Below, piece by piece: positions 23,632 to 36,891 of a DNA stretch of 64,000 nucleotides; position 1 is the stretch's first letter, and each line of letters begins with the position of its first letter. The notes under the pieces are model-generated. The model worked only from the letters and a program-made list of their open reading frames with translations. It had not been told where the DNA came from and did no database searches. The DNA is taken from IMG/VR virus record IMGVR_UViG_3300035490_000050, positions 64,001 to 128,000 of that record. One strand, 5' to 3'. This DNA comes from a virus. Made by a program: the position numbers and the translations under genes.

Positions 23632-24056
23632 CGACCTTCCTAAGTGCTGTGAGGAATGCGGCGATCACGGTTCTCTCTACCTCCACAGCAGGTGTCATCC
23701 TGACGTTCCCACATGGTCTGTGCTGACAGGAAACGTGCTAACCATTCAATGCGCTGAGTGTGAAAACGTGATCGTTAGGTTGAAGGTTAGCGACGTGGTG
23801 AAAGAGGAGACGATTCAGTGAGCAGACATCCGTACACTTATGCAGATGATTATGTTCGTCATCTTGCGGGATATAATGAAACGGGTACAATCCTATCCAG
23901 ATCAGATGCCTCTAGGATATTGGAAGGTATTGCGTTAGCGATAGGATTGGAACATGAGCAACTCGCCACAAAGTTAAGCCTGTATTACCAAGATCACGAA
24001 GAAGAGTTCACAAACCAAGATGTAGAAGCATTTATTGCCTCTACTGGAGTACGCTA

Positions 24057-24332
24057 ATGGCAAAAACACCGAAGTATGCAGGAATCAACCCGATAGAACG
24101 TCTACACAGGGGCGAACCCTACTTTTTCATTCGCGGGCAGGACCGTTTAAGTGTAGCCGCCGTCATTGAATACAGCCATCTCTTACGCCATGAGTCGGTC
24201 AATTCATCTCTGCGTGGAGACAACGAACTGTCAGACTCTCTCGATAAACAGGCAGACGAAGTTTTATCCTATGCGCAGAAGTTCAAGGACTGGCAGCGCG
24301 AGAACCCAGACAAGGTGAAGTACCCGGATTAG
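24057..24332 (+). CDS. Hypothetical phage protein
   Basis: EPYFFIRGQD..KYPD. Confidence 0.6.
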   Translation: MAKTPKYAGINPIERLHRGEPYFFIRGQDRLSVAAVIEYSHLLRHESVNSSLRGDNELSDSLDKQADEVLSYAQKFKDWQRENPDKVKYPD

Positions 24333-24535
24333 CGAACTAGCGGATGACCGAAGCCACCACCGAAGCCACTAGCCAGCGGGACCAAAAGGTACAGAAGCCA
24401 GATGCAGAATATTACGACGATCACAACTCTGGCGATTTGTGCAAACGGGGCAGGAAGAGGAATCTGAGTGAAAATCCACCAGATCAGGCCGAAGATGATG
24501 CACATTACAAGTACCGTTATCAGCAGAGAAAGCAT
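24329..24535 (-). CDS. Small two-TM membrane protein
   Basis: Two hydrophobic helices joined by IPLPAP. Confidence 0.65.
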   Translation of the reverse strand: MLSLLITVLVMCIIFGLIWWIFTQIPLPAPFAQIARVVIVVIFCIWLLYLLVPLASGFGGGFGHPLVR

Positions 24536-25168
24536 GAGGCACCTCAGATTCCATTGAACGCCGATTTGATTGTGTAAGTTGAGCAAAACAGGACAGGAGA
24601 ACGAAAATGGCTTACGAAGAATTTTCACATTACGCCCAAAACCGTACTAGCCTCTGGTGTCCGATCTGCGGAGCTGCGGAAGGAAAGGGATGTAACGAAG
24701 TACACGGACTGCGGTTTTCTGGCCATAATTCCTTCGCGCTAGGACAGGTAAGACAAACTCCATCTGTACTTCACTACTACGACCCGCCAGCGTTCTTGGA
24801 CGTTTACCCTGCGCGTAAGGACAAGCCAAGAATAAGTTCAGGGCTGAGGGGATGGGTAAATTGACGAAAAAGAAATTCGAACACGCTCCAGAACTCAACA
24901 CCGATAGTCCTGCTTACGATAAGGTTATTTGTGAGTTGGATAAGATAATATACAGTGACCCGGAAGATGTGGCACAAGAGCTAACGCTCAGAGATGCTTA
25001 TATTTCGATTGAATCTCAGTTGGGAGATTTTATTACCCCGTTTGGAAAGACAAAAGAAGCGCGGCAGGAAGAAGTAAGAAAGTTGTCTGAGGTTTTGCAT
25101 CTGGACCTCACTTTGGGTACGCCAATCTGGAAGATTGTTAAGGACTACGAATCTATGATGAGGGTGAA

Positions 25169-25492
25169 TTGAAGACCACGAAGACTATTGAGATCACAAT
25201 TTGTGACGTGTGCGGAAACGAGAAGCGGCATCAAGACTGGCCGTGTTCTCGCTGCGGTCGGGATATATGCGATGGATGCGAAGAGCATTTTTACGTTGAG
25301 ATGCGTCACACGTCAAAAGAGAGAACATACGGCTCTGGAATGCGTGGATTTCATACGTCTCATATCGCACTAGGAGACTCAAAGCGTGTATGCAAAGAGT
25401 GCGCTGTGGCTATCGTGGAAGGTTTGAACGCCTTGGGGCTTGTGGGAAAGCCGCAGGATGAAGTAGACAAATTTATGGCGGTTATGGATTAA
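25169..25492 (+). CDS. Cys-rich zinc-finger protein
   Basis: Several CxxC pairs. Confidence 0.6.
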   Translation: MKTTKTIEITICDVCGNEKRHQDWPCSRCGRDICDGCEEHFYVEMRHTSKERTYGSGMRGFHTSHIALGDSKRVCKECAVAIVEGLNALGLVGKPQDEVDKFMAVMD

Positions 25493-25495
25493 CGC

Positions 25496-25524
25496 TTGAC
25501 ATCCATTTGATTCCGTGGGAGTAT
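25496..25524 (+). promoter_or_regulatory. Sigma70-type promoter of tRNA operon A
   Basis: TTGACA-17-GAGTAT. Confidence 0.6.
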
Positions 25525-25534
25525 TGAAACTGAC

Positions 25535-25618
25535 ATGCGATTCCTATTATCCAGTTCGCGCTATTGCCTCTCATCGTTGCTGAGAGCAGGCTCGCCATAT
25601 CTGGATAAAGGGATATAA
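25535..25618 (+). CDS. Attenuator leader peptide A (MRFLLSSSRYCLSSLLRAGSPYLDKGI)
   Basis: Leu/Ser/Tyr/Cys codons match the 10 downstream tRNAs; followed by antiterminator and terminator. Confidence 0.85.
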   Translation: MRFLLSSSRYCLSSLLRAGSPYLDKGI

Positions 25619-25642
25619 GATTTCAGAAATCCAGAGTTTGAC

Positions 25643-25673
25643 GAGCCGCTCAGAAATGGGCGGCTTTTGTTTT
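25643..25673 (+). terminator. Attenuator terminator A
   Basis: GAGCCGCTC-AGAAAT-GGGCGGCTT followed by TTGTTTT. Confidence 0.85.
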
Positions 25674-25675
25674 GT

Positions 25676-25760
25676 GCGAGATTGGCGAAATTGGGAGCCG
25701 CGTCCGATTTAAGATCGGATTCCTTTGGGAGTATGGGTTCAAGTCCCTTATCTCGCACCA
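25676..25760 (+). tRNA. tRNA-Leu(TAA)
   Basis: Cloverleaf, V-arm, CCA. Confidence 0.9.
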
Positions 25761-25761
25761 T

Positions 25762-25836
25762 GTACCGGAAGCCAATCGGTTAGGCGGCGGATTGCAGACC
25801 CGCTCTTGGCGAGTTCGATTCTCGCCCGGTACTCCA
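25762..25836 (+). tRNA. tRNA-Cys(GCA)
   Basis: Cloverleaf, U73, CCA. Confidence 0.9.
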
Positions 25837-25847
25837 AGTTTAGTAAG

Positions 25848-25930
25848 GCCCGGATGGTGGAATTGGCAGACACACCAGCTTGAGGGGTTGGCGCGAAAGC
25901 ATACGAGTTCAAGTCTCGTTTCGGGCACCA
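25848..25930 (+). tRNA. tRNA-Leu(GAG)
   Basis: Cloverleaf, V-arm, CCA. Confidence 0.93.
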
Positions 25931-25931
25931 T

Positions 25932-26014
25932 GGGGTTGTGGCGGAATTGGCAGACGCACCCGGCTCAGGACCGGACGCTTTGGCATAAGAGTTCGACTCT
26001 CTTCAGCCCCACCA
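25932..26014 (+). tRNA. tRNA-Leu(CAG)
   Basis: Cloverleaf, V-arm, CCA. Confidence 0.93.
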
Positions 26015-26021
26015 TAAGTTT

Positions 26022-26106
26022 GTCGATGTGGCGAAACTGGAAACCGCGATAGGCTCAAACCCTATTGTCTTATGACTTGCCGGTTCGATCCCGGCCATCG
26101 ACACCA
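26022..26106 (+). tRNA. tRNA-Leu(CAA)
   Basis: Cloverleaf, V-arm, CCA. Confidence 0.93.
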
Positions 26107-26114
26107 AGTTTTAC

Positions 26115-26204
26115 GGAGACGTGGCACAATGGTACTGCACAGCATTGCTAACGCTGCGATACCCCATAAAGGTATTGGGAGTTCAAGTCTCCCCGTCTCC
26201 GCCA
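26115..26204 (+). tRNA. tRNA-Ser(GCT)
   Basis: Cloverleaf, long V-arm, G73, CCA. Confidence 0.92.
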
Positions 26205-26213
26205 TGTTTTAAC

Positions 26214-26304
26214 GGAAGGATGAGCGGAATTGGTATCGCACTCGCTTGGAAAGCGAGCTTACGTCGAAAGGCGTATGCAGGTTCGAGTCCTGTTCCTTCC
26301 GCCA
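26214..26304 (+). tRNA. tRNA-Ser(GGA)
   Basis: Cloverleaf, long V-arm, G73, CCA. Confidence 0.93.
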
Positions 26305-26305
26305 C

Positions 26306-26395
26306 GGTAGAGTTGGGCATGGCTGGCAAGCCCACCGCTCTCGAAAAGCGACGTACCGCAAGGTACTGGCAGATCGTTCCTGCCCTCTACCGCCA
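26306..26395 (+). tRNA. tRNA-Ser(CGA)
   Basis: Cloverleaf, long V-arm, atypical T-loop ATCGTTC. Confidence 0.85.
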
Positions 26396-26400
26396 AGTTT

Positions 26401-26490
26401 GGATACGTTAGGCATGTGCCAAGCCTACCCCGTTTGAAGCGGGACGCTCCTGAAAGGGACTTGGGGGTTGAACTCCCTCCGTATCCGCCA
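26401..26490 (+). tRNA. tRNA-Ser(TGA)
   Basis: Cloverleaf, long V-arm, T-loop TTGAACT. Confidence 0.85.
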
Positions 26491-26495
26491 GTTGT

Positions 26496-26586
26496 GCGCG
26501 TGTGGCTCAGTGGCGACGGCGGCAGTCTGTAGAACTGCTACCCTTTGCGGTGAACATCGGTGGTTCGACTCCATCCACGCGCACCA
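26496..26586 (+). tRNA. tRNA-Tyr(GTA)
   Basis: Cloverleaf, V-arm, CCA. Confidence 0.92.
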
Positions 26587-26588
26587 CT

Positions 26589-26741
26589 CTACTTTGCCAG
26601 CGCCCGTTTTACAGTTCTCTTTTTCTGAGAAACCTTGGTGTAGGGAGTCTGGTTGAGGGCAGGTTTCACTGTTCCTGAGACCTTGTGTTTGGTGTACGGT
26701 TTTTCTTGCAGGGCTGGCTTGACTTCGCGCTTCGTTGGCAT
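26589..26741 (-). CDS. Small basic repeat peptide (50 aa)
   Basis: GAGG RBS; VKPAL/VKPAL/VKRAL and two PYTK repeats; below ORF-track cutoff. Confidence 0.55.
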   Translation of the reverse strand: MPTKREVKPALQEKPYTKHKVSGTVKPALNQTPYTKVSQKKRTVKRALAK

Positions 26742-26849
26742 TGATTCCACCTCATAAACAGATTAGCACAATAGGAATGTGTGGTACAATTCAGGTATTC
26801 CGTCGTTCCGGCCCGACGTTAAGCAACCGGAAAATCTGAAAGGAAAACC

Positions 26850-27311
26850 ATGAGCAAGATAAAAGGTGTAGACACGTCCGTTTCATCCACCCCAAAATTC
26901 TCACAGAACAAGCCTTCAGGCGATTTCACCCACAAAGACCTCAAGCCGTGCGGAGAAGGCGGTTGTCTCCCACTAGAACAGCCTGTAGGATTCGATGAGG
27001 TTGATATTCCTGAAGTGACCTCTCCTATCCCAACCAACTTTTCTACGGTCGTCCAGATCGTCAACGGCGTAGTAACGCCAACGCTGCAAGTACTGCTCTA
27101 CGATGTACTAAGCGTGATCGACGCCTCAATCCCAAACAAGGATCAGAATCGGGCGGTCAAGAAGTTGATTCACGATGGCTTTGACAAGGCGTATCTGGAC
27201 ATCATCCGAGAAGCCTACCCTGATTCCAACTTTGCAATTGGACCAGGACACGCCTTAACGCCTCTAGCCGACAAGAGTATGGCAATTCAGGCGGCAATCA
27301 GCAAGGTGTAA
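26850..27311 (+). CDS. Hypothetical protein
   Basis: AGGA RBS, 153 aa. Confidence 0.65.
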   Translation: MSKIKGVDTSVSSTPKFSQNKPSGDFTHKDLKPCGEGGCLPLEQPVGFDEVDIPEVTSPIPTNFSTVVQIVNGVVTPTLQVLLYDVLSVIDASIPNKDQNRAVKKLIHDGFDKAYLDIIREAYPDSNFAIGPGHALTPLADKSMAIQAAISKV

Positions 27312-27328
27312 AAAGCGCAGAATTATCC

Positions 27329-27357
27329 TTGACAACTCAGGAAAACGGTAGTACCTT
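27329..27357 (+). promoter_or_regulatory. Promoter directly upstream of tRNA-fMet
   Basis: TTGACA-17-TACCTT. Confidence 0.7.
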
Positions 27358-27363
27358 GGGAAA

Positions 27364-27438
27364 TGCGGGTTGGTAGCGCAGTGTCATACGTCAGGCTCAT
27401 AACCTGAAAATCTGGTGCAAGTCCAGTACCCGCAACCA
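27364..27438 (+). tRNA. tRNA-Met(CAT), initiator-like
   Basis: TCAGG-CTCATAA-CCTGA arm, CCCGCAACCA end; atypical D and T loops. Confidence 0.8.
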
Positions 27439-27646
27439 ATCTGGAGGATGTCATGGGAAATGGCATAATTCCGCATTAGCGGCTAGAAACCGCTAATCAG
27501 TAGAGCGAGAATCCGCTGCGGGAGGTAGTATATGCAGCAGCAGAAAAGGTTGGGGGAGATGGAGAAATCCCTCCCCCAGTCTCACAAGTAAAACGAGGCG
27601 TCGACACAAACCCACGCCTATCGCCTACAAATGAAAGTGGTGTGTT

Positions 27647-28330
27647 TTGAAAATCATCGGCGGTCATGATTATTATGATGTAGCACTGTCGATGGGCATT
27701 GATCCACGGATTGTTCTCTTGCGCGGAAAGAGTAAGAGCATACCAGTAAAGGCTGCTGGCGGGAGTTTGCTTGATCGGTACTTGGAACTCAAGCCACAGG
27801 TTACGTACAACACCTACGGCATAGGAATTGAGAATGTTGCCGTGGCATTTTGTGGGAAGGTTTATCGTGGCGCTGTAGGATTGAAGTCGCTGGAGAAGCC
27901 AGAAGGACTCTGGTCAGCAGATAAGGCAAGAGCATTCGTCGCGCAGGAAAAGAATAGAAAGATTGACGTGGACTCACGGTGGTATGATCGCAGAAACAGG
28001 ATGACCATGGAGGAATATTTCACTCCTTTTGATGCTCCTGATGCTTTGCGGAACTACATGATCGCCAACAAGATTTCGATTCTGGTTGAAGAGCCGCCAA
28101 AGTACCGTGGCGAGGAAAGCTATTTTCAGGTCAATCCTTTCACGCTGAAGCAACTAGGATTCGCAAAGGCTCTTGACCCATACACGGCTTTTCAGGAACT
28201 TTCGATGTGGATCGGTGGAGTTCTTGGGGGAACGAGTCCAGAGATCGTGACGATCAAGGATGACAAGGTTTTGATTGAGAATCACGGGTTTGACAACCGA
28301 TTCTCATTTCGCGGTCCTCGGATCGCATAG
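27647..28330 (+). CDS. Conserved-looking phage hypothetical protein
   Basis: DYYD..DPYTAFQELSMWIGG..HGFD..SFR. Confidence 0.7.
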   Translation: MKIIGGHDYYDVALSMGIDPRIVLLRGKSKSIPVKAAGGSLLDRYLELKPQVTYNTYGIGIENVAVAFCGKVYRGAVGLKSLEKPEGLWSADKARAFVAQEKNRKIDVDSRWYDRRNRMTMEEYFTPFDAPDALRNYMIANKISILVEEPPKYRGEESYFQVNPFTLKQLGFAKALDPYTAFQELSMWIGGVLGGTSPEIVTIKDDKVLIENHGFDNRFSFRGPRIA

Positions 28331-28337
28331 GATTTAC

Positions 28338-28413
28338 GCAACCGTAGCATAGCGGCTAATGTACTTGATTGTCGATCAAGGGTACGCCAGTTCGAATCTG
28401 GTCGGTTGCGCCA
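28338..28413 (+). tRNA. tRNA-Asp(GTC)
   Basis: Cloverleaf, G73, CCA. Confidence 0.92.
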
Positions 28414-28428
28414 TAATCTGAGGACGCC

Positions 28429-28935
28429 ATGAGAGATCGCGCAAAGACAATAGCATCTCTCAGACGGCTTATAGAGCGTCCTGGTACGCCGCAGGAAGGC
28501 GAAACAGCAAGACGCCTATTAGAAATGATGGGCGGGAAGGATTGGGTTCCGCGTCCTTTCGATGCAAGCATGTATCCTTGCGGAACTGAGGTTTTCTACT
28601 GCTACTGGACATACGATAACGAACATGGAGTGGTTTGCAAGCAGCCGCCAAAGATAGAAAGAGGCCAATGGTGGATGCGAATCAAATTCGATAAGCTGAA
28701 GCAGCCGCGTTGGGTAGCAGTAACGAGCGAACTTGGATGCCATTTAGGTTTTGAGCCGTTCAAGGGAAACGACAAGGAAGTTCTCTACCATCGGGATATA
28801 GAATGGGAAGAGACGTATCGGAAGATGATTGAAGAATTCAGGGCGCTAGGAATTGACGTAAGCCGACTTGAGCACGAAGAGGTACAAGATGCACGCGATA
28901 CCGGGTTGGATGTGCGGAGTGGACTTCTCCTGTGA
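28429..28935 (+). CDS. Hypothetical protein (DUF2786-like N-terminus)
   Basis: IASLRRL..TPQEGETARRLL. Confidence 0.55.
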   Translation: MRDRAKTIASLRRLIERPGTPQEGETARRLLEMMGGKDWVPRPFDASMYPCGTEVFYCYWTYDNEHGVVCKQPPKIERGQWWMRIKFDKLKQPRWVAVTSELGCHLGFEPFKGNDKEVLYHRDIEWEETYRKMIEEFRALGIDVSRLEHEEVQDARDTGLDVRSGLLL

Positions 28936-29183
28936 ATTAGGGGAAGCGAACGGCGGGAATACGATCTATCCGTCAGAGGAAAATCTCCGCGCCAACAGGA
29001 AATGCGTAAATTCCTCAGCGCCAGAGGATAAGATGTGCTACCCTGTTGAAGTCGTCACGATGTCGAAAGAGGACTTTCTTGAACTGGTAGAGAAGGCTGG
29101 CATTGATCCTGCGGCGATTCGGTCAAGCAATTGGGGACCAGCGGTTTGGACGAAAGAACAGGGATTGATTCAGTAGAGTTTTT

Positions 29184-29261
29184 GAGATGGCAGAGTGCGT
29201 TGGTTTGCTCCACGGCTTTTCACACCGTGCCACGCGGGTTCGATTCCCGTCCATCTCGCCA
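29184..29261 (+). tRNA. tRNA-Glu(TTC)
   Basis: Cloverleaf with 31:39 mismatch, CCA. Confidence 0.8.
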
Positions 29262-29267
29262 AGTTTT

Positions 29268-29345
29268 GGGGTCACCGTCTAAATGGATTTGGATACCTGA
29301 TTCTCACTCAGGAGATTGCGAGTTCGATCCTCGCTGACCCTACCA
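29268..29345 (+). tRNA. tRNA-Glu(CTC)
   Basis: Cloverleaf, CCA. Confidence 0.9.
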
Positions 29346-29423
29346 CAATTCAAGACTCGCGACCTGATCTGAGTCAACGGGCTGGCACGGTGACCAGTGC
29401 ATCAACCGAAAAGGAGAATAACG

Positions 29424-29798
29424 ATGCGTACCCGTTGCAAGTTCAGAGTCGTTGGTATTGAGAGTGTTGAACACGCGATCTTCAAGAAGGTATACAAGGC
29501 CGATGTGAGCGCCGAAGAATATGAAGCGATCACATCTCAAGAGTGGACCGAATATCCTCCCAATCCAGACAGGCGTCTCGGTGGTGGTCCTGAGCCAAAG
29601 TTGTACAAGCAGATATTTCTAGCGAACGCTCAGAATATCCGATTGGCTGCTCAGTACGACCCTTCCATTCCCGAAGATCAGCGGTTCATGGAAGCCACAC
29701 CCTCTGGGGAAATCAAGATGTATATTTCCAATCCCGCAGTGATAAACGGCTTCAAGATCGGAACGAACTACTACGTTGATCTGACGCCCTGCGATTAA
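29424..29798 (+). CDS. Phage hypothetical protein
   Basis: AGGAG RBS; RCKFRV..FMEATPSG..YYVDLTP. Confidence 0.7.
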   Translation: MRTRCKFRVVGIESVEHAIFKKVYKADVSAEEYEAITSQEWTEYPPNPDRRLGGGPEPKLYKQIFLANAQNIRLAAQYDPSIPEDQRFMEATPSGEIKMYISNPAVINGFKIGTNYYVDLTPCD

Positions 29799-29886
29799 CA
29801 TTGTCTGCCGTACCAGCACAAAAAGAGAAGCCCACCGATGTCTTGGTGGGCCTTTCTTTGCACTCCCCTCGTAAGGTGATACCAGT

Positions 29887-30636
29887 TTACTTCTTTGGAC
29901 TTCCCATGTCAACAGGAGCCATCCGACGCGACATTCCTGCCGCTCTCATTGCCCGCACGGGAACGCTCTTGTAGAAGTCGTTCGTCGTTCGTCCAACGCT
30001 TGCGGAGAACGCCATCGTAGCGTGCGCAGTGTTGGCGTAGGCTGCTCTTACATTGCTTTGGTCGAAGACAACCGAATTGGAGAGATTGATGCCCATTGAA
30101 TCTCCAGCCGTGAACGCACTGAGATCAGCGCCGAGGAAGACGAAGGTCCAGTTTCCTTCCTTCTCTTTATTCTCGATCAGTTCCTTGATCTTCGCAAGAT
30201 TGAATTCTCGTGACGAATTTTCCTGCCCGTCCGTCAAGATGACGGTGAGAATCTTTGGCATCATCCCAAGTGACGGAACGCCTGCAAATGATGCTTCGAC
30301 CTTGGAAACAGTGGACCCGATAGCGTCGAGAAGCGCGGTGCCGCCGCATGGAACGTAACTCTGCTTGGTGAGTTCCGGCACCTCAGAGAGAGCGATGGAT
30401 ACGTGACGGTTTTCAAACCGCGTATCGAACAATGTAAGGCTGAAAGCATACGTCGATTTCTTGTCTTTTTTCAACTCACTGATATACGTGTTGAAACCGC
30501 CGATGGTGTCGTCCAAACAGGTAGCCATGGAACCGGACTTGTCGAGAACAAAGTTGATGAGAACCTTACCGTTTTTTGCGGCGGCTGGATTTGACTTCTT
30601 TGCAATCTTCTTTGGTGCGGATTTCTTTGCTGGCAT
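29887..30636 (-). CDS. vWA-domain protein
   Basis: MIDAS DKSGS, GGTALLDA, TDGQENSS. Confidence 0.9.
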   Translation of the reverse strand: MPAKKSAPKKIAKKSNPAAAKNGKVLINFVLDKSGSMATCLDDTIGGFNTYISELKKDKKSTYAFSLTLFDTRFENRHVSIALSEVPELTKQSYVPCGGTALLDAIGSTVSKVEASFAGVPSLGMMPKILTVILTDGQENSSREFNLAKIKELIENKEKEGNWTFVFLGADLSAFTAGDSMGINLSNSVVFDQSNVRAAYANTAHATMAFSASVGRTTNDFYKSVPVRAMRAAGMSRRMAPVDMGSPKK

Positions 30637-30907
30637 TCGTATTCTCCTGTGCTGCTAACGCGGTTGAAAGTGTTGATTCAGGTACGCGGTAGCACCGCTC
30701 CGCGCCAAGGAAGCTGTAGATTGCAGGTCCAGGTTCACGCCGCGAGTTGTAAACGTCATTCAGATATTGCGGCGAGACACCCATCGTCTGCGCAAATTCC
30801 TTTTGCGTCCTCTCCCCTTGAATCTTCTGCATGATTTCCAAGAGTCCTGCGATATTCGTCACCCTGTACATAAATACTATAATACGCGGATTTGTGGTAT
30901 AATGCAA
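30566..30907 (-). CDS. HTH protein
   Basis: TQKEFAQTMGVSPQYLNDV..REPG. Confidence 0.6.
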   Translation of the reverse strand: MHYTTNPRIIVFMYRVTNIAGLLEIMQKIQGERTQKEFAQTMGVSPQYLNDVYNSRREPGPAIYSFLGAERCYRVPESTLSTALAAQENTNASKEIRTKEDCKEVKSSRRKKR

Positions 30908-30933
30908 GTAGAAAGTTTTTGAAAAGGAGTTTC

Positions 30934-31524
30934 ATGGGAGCGAAGCGTTTACCTGCCACCGTAAAAAATCTGACGCCTATGCGTGCTGCATGGCTTGCTG
31001 CTCTGATTGATGGAGAAGGAACAATCAGTATCCACCTAACGCCTAACGGATCAAAACGTGCGTGGATCGCGGTTTACAACACAAACACCGATATTCTTGA
31101 CAAATGTGCCTATGTGTGTGGCGCTGGCGTTGTTCGGAAGAAAATGCCGGGAAAGAAGAATGATGGATTCAAACGATTGCAAATGTGGGAATGGGAACTT
31201 GATAGAGCAAGAGATGCTCACCATCTTCTATGCCAACTTTATCCGTACCTGATAATCAAGCAACACAAAGCAATAGACCTCATTGTTCATTGGAGGGACG
31301 AAAGAACCAACGATATTTCAGAAAACGACCACGACGACGTAAAGGAAATGAAGATGGCGCAGCGTCATTTAAGCAACAGGGAATTTTCGGTCGCACTTGG
31401 TTTCGGATACGGATGCGTCAGCGGAATATATTCTCGGAATGATCCGCTTTCATCGAGAGTCAGAATCGCGTTGGATAAATACAAGACAGAAATGCCAAAC
31501 AGAAAAGAATTATCTTGGCGATGA
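30934..31524 (+). CDS. Free-standing LAGLIDADG endonuclease-like protein
   Basis: AWLAALIDGEGTI..LYPYLIIKQ. Confidence 0.85.
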   Translation: MGAKRLPATVKNLTPMRAAWLAALIDGEGTISIHLTPNGSKRAWIAVYNTNTDILDKCAYVCGAGVVRKKMPGKKNDGFKRLQMWEWELDRARDAHHLLCQLYPYLIIKQHKAIDLIVHWRDERTNDISENDHDDVKEMKMAQRHLSNREFSVALGFGYGCVSGIYSRNDPLSSRVRIALDKYKTEMPNRKELSWR

Positions 31525-31533
31525 AAATAGTCC

Positions 31534-31562
31534 TTGACAGCGATTCCCATCTGCGCTAAGGT
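31534..31562 (+). promoter_or_regulatory. Promoter of tRNA operon B
   Basis: TTGACA-17-TAAGGT; ATG 8 nt after the -10 box (leaderless). Confidence 0.75.
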
Positions 31563-31569
31563 AGAAAAC

Positions 31570-31650
31570 ATGAAGACGCGATTCCAAAACGCCAATCCAA
31601 CAGCGACGGCAACGCCGCAGGGTCATGGTGCGGAATCAGGGTCTCAGTAG
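31570..31650 (+). CDS. Attenuator leader peptide B (MKTRFQNANPTATATPQGHGAESGSQ)
   Basis: Codons 3-21 use only the nine amino acids of the 11 downstream tRNAs. Confidence 0.85.
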   Translation: MKTRFQNANPTATATPQGHGAESGSQ

Positions 31651-31683
31651 GATTTTTACTCGCATAGAGCGAGTAAAACTGAA

Positions 31684-31724
31684 GAGGCCCGGTCCAAAGA
31701 AGCGGATCGGGCCTCGGTGCTTTT
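31684..31724 (+). terminator. Attenuator terminator B
   Basis: GAGGCCCGGTCC-8nt-GGATCGGGCCTC followed by GGTGCTTTT (weak U-tract). Confidence 0.7.
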
Positions 31725-31732
31725 AGGGATGT

Positions 31733-31808
31733 TCCACGGTCGTCTAACTGTGAAGACACCGAACTGTTAATTCGGGTAATGCAGGTCAGAATCCTGCCTG
31801 TGGAGCCA
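31733..31808 (+). tRNA. tRNA-Asn(GTT)
   Basis: Cloverleaf, atypical T-loop TCAGAAT. Confidence 0.88.
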
Positions 31809-31817
31809 GTTTGAAGT

Positions 31818-31893
31818 TGGGGAGAAGTTCAACGGGTGGAACAATCGGCTCTGACCCGATAGGCAGAAAGTTCGAGACTTTCCTCCCCAGCCA
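31818..31893 (+). tRNA. tRNA-Gln(CTG)
   Basis: U1:A72, cloverleaf, CCA. Confidence 0.9.
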
Positions 31894-31900
31894 AGATCGT

Positions 31901-31974
31901 TGCCCGTTCGTTCAACGGTAGGACACCGCCCTTTGGAGGCGAGGATGGCGGTTCAAGTCCGTCACGGGTAGCCA
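31901..31974 (+). tRNA. tRNA-Gln(TTG)
   Basis: U1:A72, cloverleaf, CCA. Confidence 0.92.
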
Positions 31975-31981
31975 AATTAAC

Positions 31982-32055
31982 GCGGGCATAGCTCAGTGGT
32001 AGAGTGCTGGCTTGCCGAGCCGGAGACGCGGATTCAAGTTCCGCTGCCCGCTCCA
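31982..32055 (+). tRNA. tRNA-Gly(GCC)
   Basis: Cloverleaf, U73, CCA. Confidence 0.93.
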
Positions 32056-32136
32056 TATTGAAAGAGGAAGACGATGAAGGTTGATTTGGACGCCAGCATG
32101 GAATCGGTATACGGAAGGCTGGCAGGAAGGTTTCAG

Positions 32137-32211
32137 GCTGCTGTGGCAGAGAGCTTATGCGCTGACCCCGTAAGTCAGAATACAAGGGTTGAAATCCCTT
32201 CGGCAGCTCCA
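32137..32211 (+). tRNA. tRNA-Thr(CGT), C33 variant
   Basis: CTGAC-CCCGTAA-GTCAG arm, CCA. Confidence 0.85.
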
Positions 32212-32236
32212 GAATGTGACGAAAGCGAGTAGGACG

Positions 32237-32782
32237 ATGAACTTACTGAAAAAACCCGTACTTTTGCTCAACGCATCGTATGAGGCAATTCGCATAATTT
32301 CAGCAAAGAGATCGCTGACTCTCTTAACGAAAGGAAAAGTTGCGGTCGAACTTGCAACGGACAGGGAAGTTTATCCTGGCGTGTTTTTGCCTAGCGTTAT
32401 CCGTCTTCTTGTCTACAAGCATGTTCCCGTCAGAATGCAGCAGATGACGCGCAAAAACCTGTACTTGAGAGACGGTTACAAATGTGGCTATTGCGGTGAG
32501 CAGTTTTCTGGAAGCGAACTGACTTTGGATCACATTATCCCAAAGGCGCAAGGTGGAAAGAACACGTATGAGAACTTGATTACCTGCTGCCGCAAGGATA
32601 ACCATCGGAAAGCGGATCGGACGCCTCAACAGGCAGGAATGGTTTTGTTGAGACGGCCTATCCCGGCAACGGTTCACACTGGTAGGCACATCATGCGTTC
32701 GCTAGGATTAGAAACGCAGGGATGGGCAAAATATCTTTGGGCTGATGCTGATGGTGAGCAGAGGTTAGTGGCAAGAGGATGA
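32237..32782 (+). CDS. HNH endonuclease (McrA-like)
   Basis: VLLLNASYE..PSVIRL..RDGYKCGYCG..TLDHIIP..N..KADRTP. Confidence 0.93.
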   Translation: MNLLKKPVLLLNASYEAIRIISAKRSLTLLTKGKVAVELATDREVYPGVFLPSVIRLLVYKHVPVRMQQMTRKNLYLRDGYKCGYCGEQFSGSELTLDHIIPKAQGGKNTYENLITCCRKDNHRKADRTPQQAGMVLLRRPIPATVHTGRHIMRSLGLETQGWAKYLWADADGEQRLVARG

Positions 32783-32786
32783 GTTT

Positions 32787-32861
32787 GCACTCTAAACATT
32801 GCTGGTGATGCCTTCCCCTGTAAGGAAGTTTAACGGAGTTCGAGTCTCCGAGAGTGCTCCA
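32787..32861 (+). tRNA. tRNA-Thr(TGT), C33 variant
   Basis: CTTCC-CCTGTAA-GGAAG arm, CCA. Confidence 0.85.
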
Positions 32862-32864
32862 AGT

Positions 32865-32941
32865 GTGGCCGTAGTTCAAGAGGAAGAACACATGCCTGTG
32901 GCGCATGTATGATGGGCTTTCGAGCAGCCCCGGCCACCCCA
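32865..32941 (+). tRNA. tRNA-His(GTG)
   Basis: Cloverleaf, C73, CCA. Confidence 0.9.
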
Positions 32942-32946
32942 TTTGT

Positions 32947-33021
32947 GGGGGTGTAGTGACAATGAGAACACGTCCCGTTTGCACCGGGAAAATCGGAGTT
33001 TGAATCTCCGCATCTCCACCA
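32947..33021 (+). tRNA. tRNA-Ala(TGC)
   Basis: G3:U70, cloverleaf, CCA. Confidence 0.9.
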
Positions 33022-33031
33022 CGTAGTTTTT

Positions 33032-33107
33032 GTCTACTGAGCTAGTGCGGTCATAGCAATCGCCTGAAGAGCGATGGAATCCGGTTCGACTCCGGGAGTA
33101 GGCACCA
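33032..33107 (+). tRNA. tRNA-Phe(GAA)
   Basis: Cloverleaf, CCA. Confidence 0.92.
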
Positions 33108-33108
33108 T

Positions 33109-33182
33109 CAGGGAATAGTGTAGTGCTAACATCCGTGTTTTGGGCACACGTGTCCGGGGTTGGAATCCCCGTTCCCTGACCA
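33109..33182 (+). tRNA. tRNA-Pro(TGG)
   Basis: C1:G72, cloverleaf, CCA. Confidence 0.9.
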
Positions 33183-33187
33183 TTTTT

Positions 33188-33262
33188 CAACCCGTCGTTC
33201 AACGGAAAGGACGATGCGCTACGAACGCATAAATGGGGATTCGACTTCCTCCGGGTTGACCA
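33188..33262 (+). tRNA. tRNA-Arg(ACG)
   Basis: Cloverleaf, A20, CCA. Confidence 0.9.
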
Positions 33263-33298
33263 TAGTTCGCAAGCACGAAATAAAGTTGAAAATAATGC

Positions 33299-33327
33299 TT
33301 GCAAATGTCTGGAATGTGTAGTAGGCT
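33299..33327 (+). promoter_or_regulatory. Promoter of ncRNA/HNH/TROVE operon
   Basis: TTGCAA-17-TAGGCT. Confidence 0.65.
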
Positions 33328-33355
33328 TGATTTCGTTGGGTTTTGAAACACAGGT

Positions 33356-33482
33356 TTGCGTCTACTGTTGAGCGTACATGATGACTAGCTCACTCGGTAG
33401 AGCGATTCCCTTCAAAGGAATAGGTCACTGGTTCGATTCCAGTGTCATCTACTTCGGTAGATCGCTCAACGTCTTGACGCAG
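33356..33482 (+). ncRNA. Y-RNA-like tRNA mimic 1
   Basis: tRNA core (D, anticodon TCA, T arms) closed by extended stems GTTGAGCG/CGCTCAAC and TGCGTC/GACGCA; no CCA. Confidence 0.7.
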
Positions 33483-33487
33483 TAAAT

Positions 33488-33605
33488 TTGGGTGTAATTT
33501 TCGGCTTACATGAGCCTGTTTGGTCAGGCACTTGCCGTTGGAGCAAACTAACCCGGTTCGATTCCGGGATGTTACCCGAAAGGGTTGCCGAGAGACTTCA
33601 CCCAA
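33488..33605 (+). ncRNA. Y-RNA-like tRNA mimic 2
   Basis: Same layout: TTGGGTG/CACCCAA, TCGGC/GCCGA, T arm CCCGG-TTCGATT-CCGGG, extra GAAA hairpin. Confidence 0.7.
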
Positions 33606-33613
33606 TAAGTTGT

Positions 33614-33731
33614 GGGGGACCGCTTAGTAAACCGAGGACGACTTCTCGGAAACGAGTACGGTTCTAGGATACATGACAAGCATACAGCCGAAAGGCTGTG
33701 TATCGTGGCTAAACACCACGGTCCTCCACCA
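33614..33731 (+). ncRNA. 118-nt tRNA-like RNA with Ala-type acceptor stem
   Basis: GGGGGAC/GTCCTCC-ACCA (G3:U70), T-like arm CGTGG-CTAAACA-CCACG. Confidence 0.6.
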
Positions 33732-33752
33732 AAGTTTTGTAGTACAAGTTGT

Positions 33753-33873
33753 GGCGGGTTAGCAAAACGGAAAAGCTCTGCATGTCTTGACGCGCAATCG
33801 TCTATTTTGCAGGTTACATGCACATTCACTCGGAGAATGCACAATCTAGGTTCGACTCCTAGACCCGCCACCA
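33753..33873 (+). ncRNA. 121-nt expanded tRNA-like RNA
   Basis: GGCGGGT/ACCCGCC-ACCA, canonical T arm, enlarged anticodon and variable regions. Confidence 0.65.
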
Positions 33874-34082
33874 TAAGATTTACCGCATGGGAGTGCGGAA
33901 ACGAGTTTGGCTGACACTGGTTTCGTGGATACATGTTTTTGGGGATCATATCCCCACCCCCCGCCTAAGCCCTTTGGCAACGGAGGATTTAGGCGGGGGT
34001 TCTGAGGGCCGCAAGGCTGCTTAGAAAACAATTGCCCACAACCGACTTTCAGCCACTATTTTTGTGCCTTGGGAGAGGGAAT

Positions 34083-34643
34083 ATGGCCAGCGGTGATCGT
34101 TTCTACATGCTATCCTTGCGCCATCGCCCTGCGGTGTACGGCGATCTCGGAAACATCCTCAAAATCGAAGGTTTGGTGGTAGGCGGAGAAGGGGCGCATG
34201 TAATTCTTACGCTTCCCTCTTCCGATCTAAAAACTGATACCTACTGGGATGCTAATACATTCCCAGCAATTCATCAGTTATCCCTTGAGGAGTGGACCGA
34301 TTTTCTAGCGCGTACTGACGATCCAGAAATTCTAATCGGTCAAGCGAAGGCTTTCCATCGCAAATGCCGTTATGAAATTTCAGGGGCGGTACAGCAGAAG
34401 ATATGGGTAGCTGATGGTCTAAAGTGCATGTACTGCGGAGTCAGGATGGGCAGGGCACAACTCACAGTGGACCATTGGGAATCGCTTGAGGCTGGTGGAA
34501 AGAACGATAGCTCAAATTTTCTCGCAGCCTGCAAGACGTGTAATAAGGCCAAAGGTTCCATGCCGCCGCGTGACTGGTGCAGCCTTCGCAAAATTGATTA
34601 CGACTTCTTTGTGGAGTATCTGAGAACGAGGAAGTTGCCTTAA
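34083..34643 (+). CDS. HNH endonuclease
   Basis: DGLKCMYCG..LTVDH..GG..N..ACKTCNKAKG. Confidence 0.88.
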   Translation: MASGDRFYMLSLRHRPAVYGDLGNILKIEGLVVGGEGAHVILTLPSSDLKTDTYWDANTFPAIHQLSLEEWTDFLARTDDPEILIGQAKAFHRKCRYEISGAVQQKIWVADGLKCMYCGVRMGRAQLTVDHWESLEAGGKNDSSNFLAACKTCNKAKGSMPPRDWCSLRKIDYDFFVEYLRTRKLP

Positions 34644-34671
34644 CACTTTTCGCACCGGGAGGGCGAATACT

Positions 34672-36165: not shown

Positions 36166-36464
36166 TGAATATCAACGCACTGAAGAACTTCAACGCCGAC
36201 CGTATGGACTTGGATGACATGGTAGGCTTGCTTGCGGACTGCAAGGCACTCCGCGCTGAGTACGAGGCGCTCCAGATCGAAGAGCCTGAGTATATCGACA
36301 CAACCATCAAGGCAATTCGCCGGGAGATCACATCCCGCAACGCTGACAAGATCGCGGCTCGTAAGCGTGAGCTTGCCGCACGGATCGACAGCCTCAAGAC
36401 TCCTGCACAGAAGAAGGCAGAACTTGAGAAGGAGCTTGCCAAGTTGGAAGCCGTTCCTGTCTAA
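36165..36464 (+). CDS. Small coiled-coil protein
   Basis: TAATG coupling to the TROVE-like gene. Confidence 0.75.
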   Translation: MNINALKNFNADRMDLDDMVGLLADCKALRAEYEALQIEEPEYIDTTIKAIRREITSRNADKIAARKRELAARIDSLKTPAQKKAELEKELAKLEAVPV

Positions 36465-36485
36465 CCCATCAACCATTTGAGCGAA

Positions 36486-36515
36486 GGGGCACAGGATAAC
36501 GTGCCCCACTTTTTT
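36486..36515 (+). terminator. Terminator of TROVE operon
   Basis: GGGGCAC-8nt-GTGCCCC followed by ACTTTTTT. Confidence 0.75.
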
Positions 36516-36518
36516 CTC

Positions 36519-36547
36519 TTGCATTCCTAATCGACCTGGGGTACAGT
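36519..36547 (+). promoter_or_regulatory. Promoter of tRNA operon C
   Basis: TTGCAT-17-TACAGT. Confidence 0.65.
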
Positions 36548-36557
36548 TTCTATAGTG

Positions 36558-36638: not shown

Positions 36639-36645
36639 GGAAAAC

Positions 36646-36732: not shown

Positions 36733-36756
36733 ATCTGCAAAAAGATTGAATCTACC

Positions 36757-36782: not shown

Positions 36783-36811
36783 GATGTTTGAAAACTGAAA
36801 CGAATAATCAT

Positions 36812-36886: not shown

Positions 36887-36891
36887 TTTTT

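What the first reader, a model, noticed from the sequence alone, without database searches (positions are those of the whole stretch)
25535..25673. Attenuator A: Leu/Ser/Tyr/Cys leader with full 1:2, 2:3 and 3:4 hairpin set
Codons 4-16 are CTA TTA TCC AGT TCG CGC TAT TGC CTC TCA TCG TTG CTG. Twelve of 13 are L/S/Y/C, and all 10 downstream tRNAs have a cognate codon. Alternative pairings are visible: TTATCCAG with CTGGATAA (1:2); GGCTCG..TCTGGAT with ATCCAGA..CGAGCC (2:3, taking the terminator's GAGCC arm); GAGCCGCTC with GGGCGGCTT plus U-tract (3:4). Caveat: CTA, CGA, TTC and CGC have no tRNA in this operon.
Basis: partly seen in the sequence, partly recalled or inferred. Interest (0 to 1): 0.85.

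Follow-up and report, generated by a model that had tools for sequence, protein, structure and literature searches.

The report
Codon-sampling attenuator of phage tRNA genes
A tiny gene written in leucine, serine, tyrosine and cysteine codons sits between a promoter and a transcription stop signal just ahead of the phage's tRNA genes for those same amino acids, so the phage probably makes these tRNAs only when ribosomes run short of them.

Summary
Observation confirmed. The leader holds a cognate codon for 10 of 10 downstream tRNAs, all within 12 consecutive codons (exact P 5e-7).

Two more leaders in the window match their own tRNA clusters: 11 of 11 and 8 of 8, against 0-6 for the wrong cluster.

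The promoter, mini-ORF, terminator, tRNA module recurs in 10 of 11 related uncultured phages with a Leu-led cluster. Peptide order differs, but Leu/Ser/Tyr/Cys content stays at 55-81%, and only in that frame.

A stretch at the ORF's 3' end pairs with the terminator's 5' arm in all 10.

Best reading (0.75): a trp-type, ribosome-mediated attenuator that senses tRNA supply.

Weak points: nothing is experimental. Equilibrium folding predicts the switch in only 5 of 10 relatives. Start codons are leaderless or nearly so.

Eight literature searches found no account of such control of tRNA genes. This scan has already noted the same kind of element in other phage lineages.

The parts
25496..25524 (+). 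Promoter: -35 TTGACA (25496-25501), 17-nt spacer, TGn (25516-25518), -10 GAGTAT (25519-25524). The start codon lies 10 nt after the -10, so the leader mRNA has at most a 2-4 nt 5' UTR.
   Evidence: Sequence read. TTGACA-17-(TGn)NANNAT stands at the same distance in 10 of 10 class-A relatives, with a gap of 6-10 nt to the start codon. The simple promoter scan did not list it, because the -10 matches only 3 of 6.
25535..25618 (+). Leader ORF: 27 codons plus TAA, MRFLLSSSRYCLSSLLRAGSPYLDKGI.
   Evidence: Equivalent ORFs were recovered by a codon-blind, promoter-anchored rule in 10 of 11 loci with a Leu-TAA-led cluster.
25544..25582 (+). Regulatory codon run, codons 4-16. Codons 5-16 hold a cognate codon for each of the 10 downstream tRNAs.
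25547..25554 (+). Segment 1 (TTATCCAG). It pairs with 25601-25608 (CTGGATAA). The whole 1:2 domain, 25541-25614, folds at -28.3 kcal/mol.
   Evidence: The helix is kept in L024 as GTCCAG/CTGGAT (sequence).
25584..25606 (+). Segment 2: GAGC, GGCTCG and TCTGGAT. This is the 5' strand of the antiterminator.
   Evidence: The best complement to the terminator's 5' arm lies at ORF positions 49-60.
25629..25651 (+). Segment 3: ATCCAGA, CGAGCC and GCTC. This is the 3' strand of the antiterminator and overlaps the terminator's 5' arm.
   Evidence: 2:3 domain -30.3 kcal/mol.
25643..25675 (+). Intrinsic terminator: 10-bp stem GAGCCGCTCA / TGGGCGGCTT, GAAA loop, and T-rich tail from 25667.
   Evidence: -17.3 kcal/mol. 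A GC-rich hairpin with a T-rich tail stands in the same place in all 10 relatives.
25676..26586 (+). Regulated tRNA operon: Leu-TAA, Cys-GCA, Leu-GAG, Leu-CAG, Leu-CAA, Ser-GCT, Ser-GGA, Ser-CGA, Ser-TGA, Tyr-GTA. The first tRNA starts 9 nt after the terminator stem, with no room for another promoter.

Best explanation
This is a ribosome-mediated (leader-peptide) transcription attenuator that gates a phage tRNA operon and reads the supply of the tRNAs that operon encodes.

Proposed mechanism:
1. A strong promoter (25496-25524) starts a transcript that begins at or within a few bases of the ATG at 25535.
2. A ribosome translates a 27-codon leader in which codons 5-16 present one test codon for each of the ten downstream tRNAs.
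3. If any of these codons is decoded slowly, the ribosome stops inside 25544-25582. Segment 2 (25584-25606) stays free and pairs with segment 3 (25629-25651), taking the terminator's 5' arm. RNA polymerase then runs on into the tRNA genes.
4. If all codons are read quickly, the ribosome moves onto segment 2. The hairpin 25643-25666 plus its U tract forms and transcription stops 9 nt before tRNA-Leu.

The result is negative feedback on tRNA supply.

Shown from sequence: the elements, their statistics, their conservation and the in-silico switch. Inferred: translation of the ORF, the transcription start, termination, and the physiological signal.
For: 1. Match of leader to operon.
- 10 of 10 tRNAs are covered, all within 12 codons. 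Exact P is 5.2e-7.
- The wrong leaders cover 2 of 10 and 0 of 10 of these tRNAs.

2. Three parallel cases in one genome.
- Leader B covers 11 of 11 tRNAs of its operon and leader C 8 of 8.
- Over all promoter-anchored leaders in relatives, own-operon coverage is 251 of 267 and other-operon coverage 98 of 371.

3. Conservation of composition, not of sequence.
- The 10 class-A leaders have 12-17 L/S/Y/C residues out of 19-26, with binomial P from 6e-9 to 1e-4.
- The signal is frame-specific: 144 of 225 in frame 0, against 55 of 215 and 53 of 215 in the other frames. tRNA coverage is 87 of 90 against 42 and 37 of 90.

4. Architecture.
- The conserved promoter lies upstream of the terminator, and the terminator abuts the first tRNA. 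A constitutive stop would therefore silence the operon.
- The flanking protein genes are not conserved.

5. The switch in silico.
- In the window, the 2:3 domain is -30.3 kcal/mol and the terminator -17.3.
- Terminator probability is 0.03-0.5 for stalls at codons 5-13. It is 0.96 without a ribosome or with one at the stop codon.
- In all 10 homologs the best complement of the terminator's 5' arm lies in the last ~25 nt of the ORF.
- Own pairings beat non-own pairings: -14.25 against -12.05 kcal/mol, with 62 of 20000 permutations as good.
- In transcripts cut before the 3' arm, the 5' arm is paired at P 0.6-0.9 over most of the L/S/Y/C run. This falls to 0.0-0.5 once the ribosome passes the run's end, in 9 of 10. 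L024 is irregular.

6. Leaderless initiation has a precedent. In mycobacteria, ATG or GTG at the 5' end of an mRNA is necessary and sufficient for translation (PMC4633059, passages read).
Against: - There are no experimental data. RNA-library contigs cover 25546-25694 (a variant strain, one run) and 26495-26700 (two runs), but contigs cannot show transcript ends and may derive from DNA.
- Equilibrium folding puts the terminator below P 0.5 for a stall inside the codon run in only 5 of 10 homologs. L050 reaches 0.57. L024, L021 and L029r never drop. Leader B's terminator is never disrupted. The model therefore needs kinetic trapping.
- Taken singly, the segment 2: 5'-arm complementarity beats dinucleotide shuffles at p < 0.05 in only 2 of 10 homologs.
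- The last test codons (14-16 in the window) lie so close to segment 2 that a stall there is predicted to leave the terminator intact, P 0.8-0.9.
- There is no isoacceptor-level covariation. The window's leader has CTA but no Leu-TAG gene, and 4 of 4 relatives with no Leu-GAG gene called still have CTC or CTT.
- 2 of 10 leaders start with GTG, and there is no usable Shine-Dalgarno if the predicted start site is right. The host is unknown.
- The homologs are related, so they are not independent trials.
Confidence: 0.75

Rival explanations
1. The same attenuator hardware is at work, but the signal is amino-acid starvation or general translational stress of the host, not tRNA supply. The link to tRNA genes would be a stress-induced boost of translation capacity, as with the Anabaena accessory tRNA array.
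For: A leader peptide reads charged tRNA, which depends on the amino acid as well as the tRNA. A silent accessory tRNA array induced under translational stress is in print (PMC8421152, passages read; PMC10272220, abstract).
Against: Extra tRNA does not relieve amino-acid starvation. Each of three leaders is matched codon by codon to its own operon, which a general stress sensor would not need.
Confidence: 0.1
2. The leader is translated, but control is not by termination. A stalled or passing ribosome would alter processing or stability of the primary transcript (for example RNase access to the 5' side of tRNA-Leu), and the hairpin would be a stability or processing element.
For: The hairpin lies 9 nt from the mature 5' end of the first tRNA. 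Equilibrium folds fail to open the terminator in several relatives.
Against: The hairpin is a GC-rich stem followed by a T-rich tail in all 10 homologs, which is the signature of an intrinsic terminator. The complement of its 5' arm is conserved in position.
Confidence: 0.05
3. There is no regulation. The hairpin would be a constitutive or leaky terminator that sets a low tRNA level or ends upstream transcription, and the ORF would be a chance open frame.
For: Over 24000-39000, terminator-like sites are not more frequent than in shuffles: 19 against 14.1, sd 4.5. An open frame of about 27 codons is not rare.
Against: The composition and coverage statistics, their frame specificity, three parallel cases, and conservation in 10 relatives despite sequence turnover all argue against chance. 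The promoter lies between the upstream gene and the terminator.
Confidence: 0.05
4. The ORF encodes a functional small hydrophobic peptide with its own promoter and terminator, unrelated to the tRNA genes.
For: Leu/Ser-rich 20-27-residue peptides resemble membrane or signal segments.
Against: The peptide sequence is not conserved; only its composition is. Leaders B and C are polar and match their own tRNA sets. The terminator would then cut the tRNA genes off from the only nearby promoter.
Confidence: 0.03
5. A T-box-like RNA senses uncharged tRNA by direct binding, without translation.
For: It controls tRNA-related genes through a terminator/antiterminator pair.
Against: No T-box or any other Rfam family matches 25496-25675, at gathering score or at E up to 1. 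Ten different tRNAs cannot be read by one specifier. The signal is confined to the reading frame.
Confidence: 0.02

Closest known systems
Multivalent leader-peptide attenuators of enterobacterial amino-acid operons (ilvGMEDA leader sensing Ile/Val/Leu; thr leader sensing Thr/Ile); recalled, not fetched here
   Same: A short translated ORF mixes codons for several amino acids. A stalled ribosome selects an antiterminator over an intrinsic terminator.
   Different: Here the regulated genes are tRNAs, not enzymes, so the sensed molecule is the operon's own product. There is about one codon per isoacceptor instead of runs of one codon. The start is leaderless or nearly so. No Rfam leader family matches.
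trp operon attenuator (trpL) with segments 1:2, 2:3 and 3:4; recalled, with Rfam Trp_leader RF00513 tested
   Same: The window has the same four-segment logic, with 1:2 at -28.3, 2:3 at -30.3 and 3:4 at -17.3 kcal/mol. Without a ribosome the terminator forms, P 0.96.
   Different: There is no sequence or model similarity at 25496-25675. Only leader C gives a chance-level Trp_leader hit (24 bits against a gathering score of 41, E 0.36). The antiterminator is bipartite and encloses a small hairpin.
T-box riboswitches; recalled, with Rfam tested
   Same: They report tRNA status and act through a terminator/antiterminator choice.
   Different: T-boxes bind one uncharged tRNA directly and have no ORF. 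No T-box match is found here. This element needs translation and reads ten tRNAs.
Cryptic long tRNA array (trn operon) of Anabaena sp. PCC 7120 (PMC8421152, PMC10272220)
   Same: It is an accessory tRNA gene array kept silent and switched on when translation is impaired, with a homing endonuclease gene beside the array (PMC8421152, passage read).
   Different: It is controlled by the protein repressor TrcR (PMC10272220, abstract). The words 'leader peptide', 'attenuat' and 'terminator' occur 0 times in PMC8421152.
Leader-peptide attenuators of tRNA operons noted earlier by this scan in phiCbK-like Caulobacter phages and large lake phages (AI notes, not tested here)
   Same: They have the same architecture and the same reading: promoter, mini-ORF mirroring the downstream anticodons, terminator, tRNA block.
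   Different: They are in other phage lineages. The present lineage is an uncultured group whose only matches in the phage collection are at 32% and 25% protein identity. Whether the modules share ancestry was not tested.

Membership tests
Leader-peptide (ribosome-mediated) transcription attenuators | Short ORF with a usable start between the promoter and the regulated genes | tested here: met
   A 27-codon ORF begins 10 nt after the -10. An equivalent ORF was found by a codon-blind rule in 10 of 11 loci. Translation itself is not shown.
Leader-peptide (ribosome-mediated) transcription attenuators | Enrichment of codons whose decoding reports the operon's end product | tested here: met
   10 of 10 tRNAs are covered within 12 codons, P 5.2e-7. 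L/S/Y/C is 15 of 26 against a background of 0.207. The signal is frame-specific.
Leader-peptide (ribosome-mediated) transcription attenuators | Intrinsic terminator between the leader ORF and the first regulated gene | tested here: met
   A 10-bp GC-rich stem with a T-rich tail at 25643-25675. It is present in 10 of 10 homologs.
Leader-peptide (ribosome-mediated) transcription attenuators | Antiterminator that takes the terminator's 5' arm and is freed by a ribosome stalled on the regulatory codons | tested here: inconclusive
   Met in the window. The complement is conserved in position in 10 of 10, and own pairings beat non-own pairings. Truncated-transcript folds fit in 9 of 10. Equilibrium folds support the switch in only 5 of 10.
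Leader-peptide (ribosome-mediated) transcription attenuators | Termination depends on translation of the leader | not testable with these tools
   This needs in vitro coupled transcription-translation or reporter genetics.
Leader-peptide (ribosome-mediated) transcription attenuators | Regulated genes are amino-acid biosynthesis or aminoacyl-tRNA synthetase genes | tested here: not met
   The downstream genes are ten tRNA genes. This is the point of difference from the classical family.
Rfam leader families (Leu_leader, Trp_leader, His_leader, Thr_leader and others) | Match to the covariance model at gathering score | tested here: not met
   No match on 25496-25675 at gathering score or at E up to 1.
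T-box riboswitch | Stem I specifier and the conserved T-box sequence (Rfam model match) | tested here: not met
   No T-box hit in the window.

The most novel reading that the evidence does not exclude
The three leaders together form a codon-resolved surveillance of the tRNA pool. Each isoacceptor of the phage's near-complete tRNA set has its own test codon. Loss or cleavage of any single host tRNA species, for example by an anticodon nuclease defence, would then open only the operon that holds its replacement. On this reading the module is the sensing arm of a tRNA-centred counter-defence island that also carries an RNA ligase and HNH-spread tRNA blocks.
Probability: 0.3. Interest if true: 0.92.

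Novelty: new variant of a known kind. Interest (0 to 1): 0.85.

Why it matters
If it works as read, phages regulate their own tRNA genes with the oldest known RNA switch. The switch is turned to a new use: the ribosome tests each codon and the operon supplies the missing decoder.

- It would explain how tRNA-rich phages avoid making 30 or more tRNAs when the host pool suffices.
- It would give a direct, testable link between phage tRNA genes and depletion of host tRNAs by shut-off or by defence nucleases.
- It would provide natural multi-codon sensors of decoding speed for synthetic biology.
- Annotation pipelines miss these 20-30-codon ORFs.

Tried and rejected
Searches for relatives that led nowhere:
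- The upstream 107-aa protein as anchor gave only 24-residue matches in loci without tRNAs. These were dropped.
- The 227-aa protein as anchor gave no match.
- Flanking proteins of operon A are not conserved in relatives, so the 497-aa VWA protein 9 kb downstream was used as anchor.
- A DNA pattern from the leader's 3' part found only the one relative already in hand.
- tRNA sequences are too diverged for a pattern search.
- blastn and tblastn against the phage collection found no cultured relative.

Structure work that was set aside:
- The MAFFT alignment of the ten segment 2 to terminator regions (A2) misaligns the arms. I made no pair counts on it and used duplex energies instead.
- In one search the automatic choice of terminator took the wrong hairpin in L045 and L028. 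One search repeats the analysis with the hairpins and replaces it.
- In one search the fixed 12-nt window misses L024's true 5' arm, so its own pairing ranks 10 of 10. I kept it in the test.

Isoacceptor-level covariation between leader codons and tRNA genes was looked for and not found.

Distant relatives:
- L014/L052, L023, L073, L077 and L078 have 0-1 tRNA near the anchor.
- L074 and L075/L076 have tRNAs but no recognisable module.
- L086 fails the promoter rule.

Sequencing runs:
- RNA runs X18-X20 hold only small shares of the stretch.
- Most of their pieces on the two middle tRNA-Leu genes continue into unlike sequence and are probably other organisms' tRNAs. I draw no conclusion on expression level.
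- Parts of the stretch without cover in these runs are no evidence.

Duplicates dropped before the counts: L016 and L017 (same as L015), L022 and L067 (same as L010), L059 (same record as L018), L079-L085 and L087 (repeat fetches), L076 (same as L075), and L025-L027 (fragments of G003).

Supplementary files of papers were not opened. Supplements of PMC8421152 could hold promoter mapping that bears on the comparison.

Full report
WHAT IS THERE

The window is bases 64001-128000 of a 136,454-base virus record rated complete. All 31 tRNA genes that ARAGORN finds in the genome lie in the window between 25676 and 37979. They form three main blocks on the + strand.

The finding lies directly upstream of the first block. 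I read the sequence and checked every coordinate:
- TTGACA at 25496-25501.
- A 17-nt spacer ending in TGG.
- GAGTAT at 25519-25524.
- ATG at 25535.
- A 27-codon ORF ending with TAA at 25616-25618.
- A hairpin GAGCCGCTCA-GAAA-TGGGCGGCTT at 25643-25666, followed by TTGTTTTGT.
- tRNA-Leu(TAA) starting at 25676.

The terminator scan lists this hairpin with 10 pairs, 6 of them G-C. The promoter scan does not list the promoter, because its -10 matches only 3 of 6. Over 24000-39000, terminator-like sites are not more frequent than in shuffles (19 against 14.1, sd 4.5).

Codons 4-16 are as quoted, and 12 of 13 encode L, S, Y or C. Nine tRNAs are called at default settings. The tenth, Ser-TGA at 26401-26490, needs a relaxed threshold. 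Relatives have it at default settings in the same place.

With simple wobble rules, 10 of 10 tRNAs have a cognate codon in the leader, all within codons 5-16.
- Under iid sampling from this genome's codon usage, full coverage in 26 codons has P = 4.7e-4.
- Full coverage in 12 codons has P = 5.2e-7, or 7.7e-6 after multiplying by 15 windows.
- Of 584 mechanical ATG ORFs of 20-40 codons in the genome, one reaches 10 of 10.
- Of 41,195 windows of 26 codons in long ORFs, 24 do.

The three pairings exist. The minimum-energy fold of 25530-25680 contains the 1:2 helix and the terminator (-51.1 kcal/mol, z = -2.6, 2 of 200 shuffles as good). The 2:3 helix appears as soon as segment 1 is masked.

PARALLEL CASES IN THE SAME WINDOW

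The other two tRNA blocks are also preceded by a short ORF and a terminator.
- Leader B is MKTRFQNANPTATATPQGHGAESGSQ at 31570-31650, with a terminator at 31684-31715.
- Leader C is MQTTTRRGTITRMTKRVIWGIVREGWDD at 36646-36732, with a terminator at 36757-36778.

Each covers its own block: A 10 of 10, B 11 of 11, C 8 of 8. The six cross-comparisons give 0 to 6 covered. With the three low-scoring Arg genes added, C covers 10 of 11. The iid P values for B and C are 1.5e-3 and 7.8e-3.

RELATIVES

The genes flanking operon A are not conserved. I therefore anchored on the 497-aa VWA-domain protein at 34672-36165. It has 727 database relatives at E 0.001 or better, among 8000 candidates scored.

Scans of viral and metagenome contigs gave 15, 43, 9 and 15 loci, with overlaps. 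Three operon-A starts lay just beyond the fetched flanks. I took them from the records themselves.

The close relatives keep the same three tRNA blocks in the same order. Eleven loci have a cluster led by Leu-TAA.

I applied a rule that ignores codon content: take the best TTGACA/TATAAT-like promoter in the 300 nt upstream, then the first ATG or GTG 3-16 nt after its -10 that opens at least 12 codons. This returns a leader in 10 of 11 loci. The distant L086 fails. In all 10:
- The -35 is TTGACA with a 17-nt spacer.
- The gap from the -10 to the start codon is 6-10 nt.
- Where I read the sequence, a TGn precedes the -10.

The ten peptides are:
- MRFLLSSSRYCLSSLLRAGSPYLDKGI
- MKLCLSSSRLYSSLLRMGSPFLDRGI
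- MNNLCSLSLSSYSLSLSAREAMG
- MKNFGLSSLCSSSYLLSLSGREAMG
- MKNLCSNSLLSSLSYLLCVERRV
- (V)KTLSLSSCLYLSSSEGWVD
- (V)KTYCLSSYCLSLLSSLSNEGAFV
- MKTVCLSSLSSYSSLLSGGGGS
- MKFLCLSSLSSYCSLLSSSGGS
- MKLLSLLSSSLYSCSLSGMEARM

Residue order is not conserved but composition is. L/S/Y/C makes up 12-17 of 19-26 residues against a background of 0.207, with P from 6e-9 to 1e-4.

Own-operon coverage at the relaxed tRNA threshold, in the order's table (WIN, L024, L012, L037, L045, L019, L021, L028, L050, L029r), is 10/10, 11/12, 9/9, 7/9, 6/6, 11/11, 7/7, 10/11, 10/10 and 6/6. The misses are one dubious 96-nt 'Ala', one uncalled anticodon, Ser-GGA and Leu-CAA.

The signal belongs to the reading frame:
- L/S/Y/C is 144 of 225 in frame 0, against 55 of 215 and 53 of 215 in the other frames.
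- tRNA coverage is 87 of 90 in frame 0, against 42 and 37 of 90.

Over all leaders of the three classes picked by the promoter rule, own-operon coverage is 251 of 267 and other-operon coverage 98 of 371. Duplicates were dropped as listed under Tried and rejected. These phages are related, so the counts are not independent trials.

THE SWITCH

In the window, the 1:2 domain folds at -28.3 kcal/mol, the 2:3 domain at -30.3 and the terminator at -17.3.

I masked everything from the 5' end to 12 nt past the A-site codon. The mean probability of the ten terminator pairs is then:
- 0.85-0.91 for codons 1-4.
- 0.46-0.51 for codons 5-7.
- 0.03-0.14 for codons 8-10.
- About 0.5 for codons 11-13.
- 0.77-0.96 from codon 14 to the stop.

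Without a ribosome it is 0.96. Masking only a 30-nt footprint gives the same picture for codons 4-12, and an intact terminator for codons 19-28.

For the relatives the result is mixed, and I report it in full.
- At equilibrium the terminator falls below 0.5 for a stall inside the codon run in 5 of 10: the window, L037, L045, L019 and L028.
- It reaches 0.57 in L050.
- It falls below 0.5 only at codon 1 in L012.
- It never falls in L024, L021 or L029r.
- Leader B's 12-bp terminator is never opened, and C's only partly.

Classical attenuators also have terminators more stable than their antiterminators and work kinetically (recalled). I therefore asked two further questions.

First, where is the best complement of the terminator's 5' arm? 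In 10 of 10 it lies in the last ~25 nt of the ORF, just after the L/S/Y/C run. The z scores against dinucleotide shuffles run from -0.4 to -4.3, and only 2 of 10 are below p 0.05 singly. Own pairings are better than pairings with other homologs' arms: -14.25 against -12.05 kcal/mol, with 62 of 20000 permutations as good. The printed sequences show changes on both sides. L028 has CGGGGG facing CCUCCG, and L050 has UGGGGG facing CCUCCA. The window has GAGC facing GCUC, where L024 has CUGAGG facing CCUCAG.

Second, what happens in transcripts cut before the 3' arm is made? The 5' arm is paired at P 0.6-0.9 over most of the L/S/Y/C run. This falls to 0.0-0.5 once the ribosome passes the end of the run, in 9 of 10. 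The fall begins one to three codons before the run ends. L024 is irregular. Most B and C leaders behave alike, although the automatic choice of hairpin failed for some.

This is what the model predicts, but it is a proxy, since masking more RNA can only reduce pairing. Whether an untranslated leader terminates is unsettled. Full-length equilibrium says yes (0.75-1.00 in 10 of 10). The truncated folds leave the 5' arm largely paired even without a ribosome (0.29-0.88).

INITIATION

With the predicted promoter, the transcript would begin 0-4 nt before the start codon. The leaders are then leaderless or nearly so, and 2 of 10 class-A leaders start with GTG.

The GGGAG at 25517-25521 would be outside the transcript, unless transcription reads through from the upstream gene, whose stop codon ends 4 nt before the -35. 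In mycobacteria, ATG or GTG at the 5' end is necessary and sufficient for translation. In E. coli, leaderless GTG is weak (PMC4633059, passages read). The host is unknown, so this step is inferred.

EXPRESSION DATA

Besides three rows marked as possible sources, runs labelled peat or wetland metagenome from other samples hold more than half of the stretch's sampled words.

In three metatranscriptome runs kept as contigs:
- One 212-nt contig of a variant strain covers 25546-25694. That is the leader, the terminator and the start of tRNA-Leu.
- Two exact contigs cover 26495-26700.

Contigs cannot show ends or strand and may come from DNA, so this is at most a hint that the region is present in RNA libraries.

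WHAT IT IS NOT

No Rfam family other than tRNA matches at gathering score. Nothing matches 25496-25675 at E up to 1. Leader C gives a chance-level Trp_leader hit of 24 bits against a gathering score of 41. The element is therefore not a member of the curated leader families or of the T-box family. It works like the first group.

KNOWN OR NEW

Eight full-text searches found no paper describing a leader-peptide attenuator in front of tRNA genes. A survey of premature terminators does not mention tRNA genes (PMC2965389, term search).

The nearest thing in print is the silent 26-gene tRNA array of Anabaena, which is induced under translational stress. Its paper has 0 occurrences of 'leader peptide', 'attenuat' or 'terminator' (PMC8421152). 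Its regulator is the repressor TrcR (PMC10272220, abstract).

The library holds only open papers and preprints, and supplements were closed, so absence in print is not proven.

This scan has noted the same kind of module before in other phages: phiCbK-like Caulobacter phages and large lake phages. Follow-up agents there reached the same reading. I did not test those notes. They are AI notes, not independent evidence.

VERDICT

I put 0.75 on a ribosome-mediated attenuator that feeds back on tRNA supply. The remainder is divided among:
- the same hardware reading general translation stress;
- a translation-dependent processing element;
- a constitutive terminator with a chance ORF;
- a peptide gene;
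- direct tRNA binding.

The mechanism class is known. Its use on tRNA genes, with one test codon per isoacceptor, is a new variant.

Noticed in passing
31534-31727 and 36519-36786: Two further promoter, mini-ORF, terminator modules stand ahead of the Asn...Arg and Trp...Gly tRNA blocks (leaders B and C). B's terminator is not opened in any equilibrium fold. C is preceded by a second short ORF (36559-36639) whose TAA overlaps the AAGGA before C's ATG.
   Followed up: partly
33379-33452; relatives L010, L012, L036, L037: A tRNA with anticodon TCA, which reads TGA (ARAGORN calls it SeC; Rfam tRNA 63 bits). Relatives carry tRNAs with anticodons CTA and TTA. These may be suppressor tRNAs. Whether phage genes contain in-frame stops was not examined.
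   Followed up: no
37159-37581 and 29268-29342: Unusual tRNAs. Two tRNA-Lys are 86-87 nt long. Three tRNA-Arg (TCT, CCT, CCG) are found only at a relaxed threshold and match the AGA and CGG codons of leader C. One tRNA is found by Rfam only, and ARAGORN reads it with a four-base anticodon.
   Followed up: partly
36970-37158: A stretch of about 190 nt between tRNA-Met and tRNA-Lys ends like a T arm plus acceptor and CCA. No tRNA is called there.
   Followed up: no
L086:13060-13300: This is a distant relative with a rearranged tRNA block (Leu, Asn, Arg, Cys, Ile, Leu, Tyr, Leu, Arg...). A 29-codon ORF, MKFLRYNERCSLHIETRYLRLDDFLNRIR, ends 16 nt before the first tRNA. It covers 9 of the first 9 tRNAs, and 21 of 28 codons are cognate to the first 14 (background 0.41, P 3e-4, chosen post hoc). 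No terminator lies between ORF and tRNA. Upstream are a 5-codon ORF and a terminator-like hairpin.
   Followed up: partly
25544-25546 versus operon A: The window's leader keeps a CTA codon although its operon has no Leu-TAG gene. All 9 relatives have that gene. This suggests a recent loss of the tRNA.
   Followed up: partly
25537-25544, 31540-31547, 31578-31585: The 8-mer GCGATTCC occurs at the start of leader A, in leader B and in B's promoter spacer. The window has 7 copies against 2.96 expected, and 2 of 100 shuffles reach 7. Leader A's unusual MRF start resembles B's TRF, so the 5' end may be chimeric.
   Followed up: partly
32189-32782, 34032-34643, 34672-36165, 38985-39953(-): Two HNH endonuclease genes lie inside or beside the tRNA blocks. 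There is also a VWA-domain protein with a large family in metagenomes, and an RNA ligase with a PHA02142 OB-fold domain. Together they form a tRNA- and RNA-repair-flavoured neighbourhood.
   Followed up: partly
window 25667-25675 and homologs: The T-rich tail after the terminator is nearly the same word in most homologs (TTTTAGTTTGT-like) right up to the tRNA 5' end. It may serve as both the termination tract and a 5' processing site.
   Followed up: no
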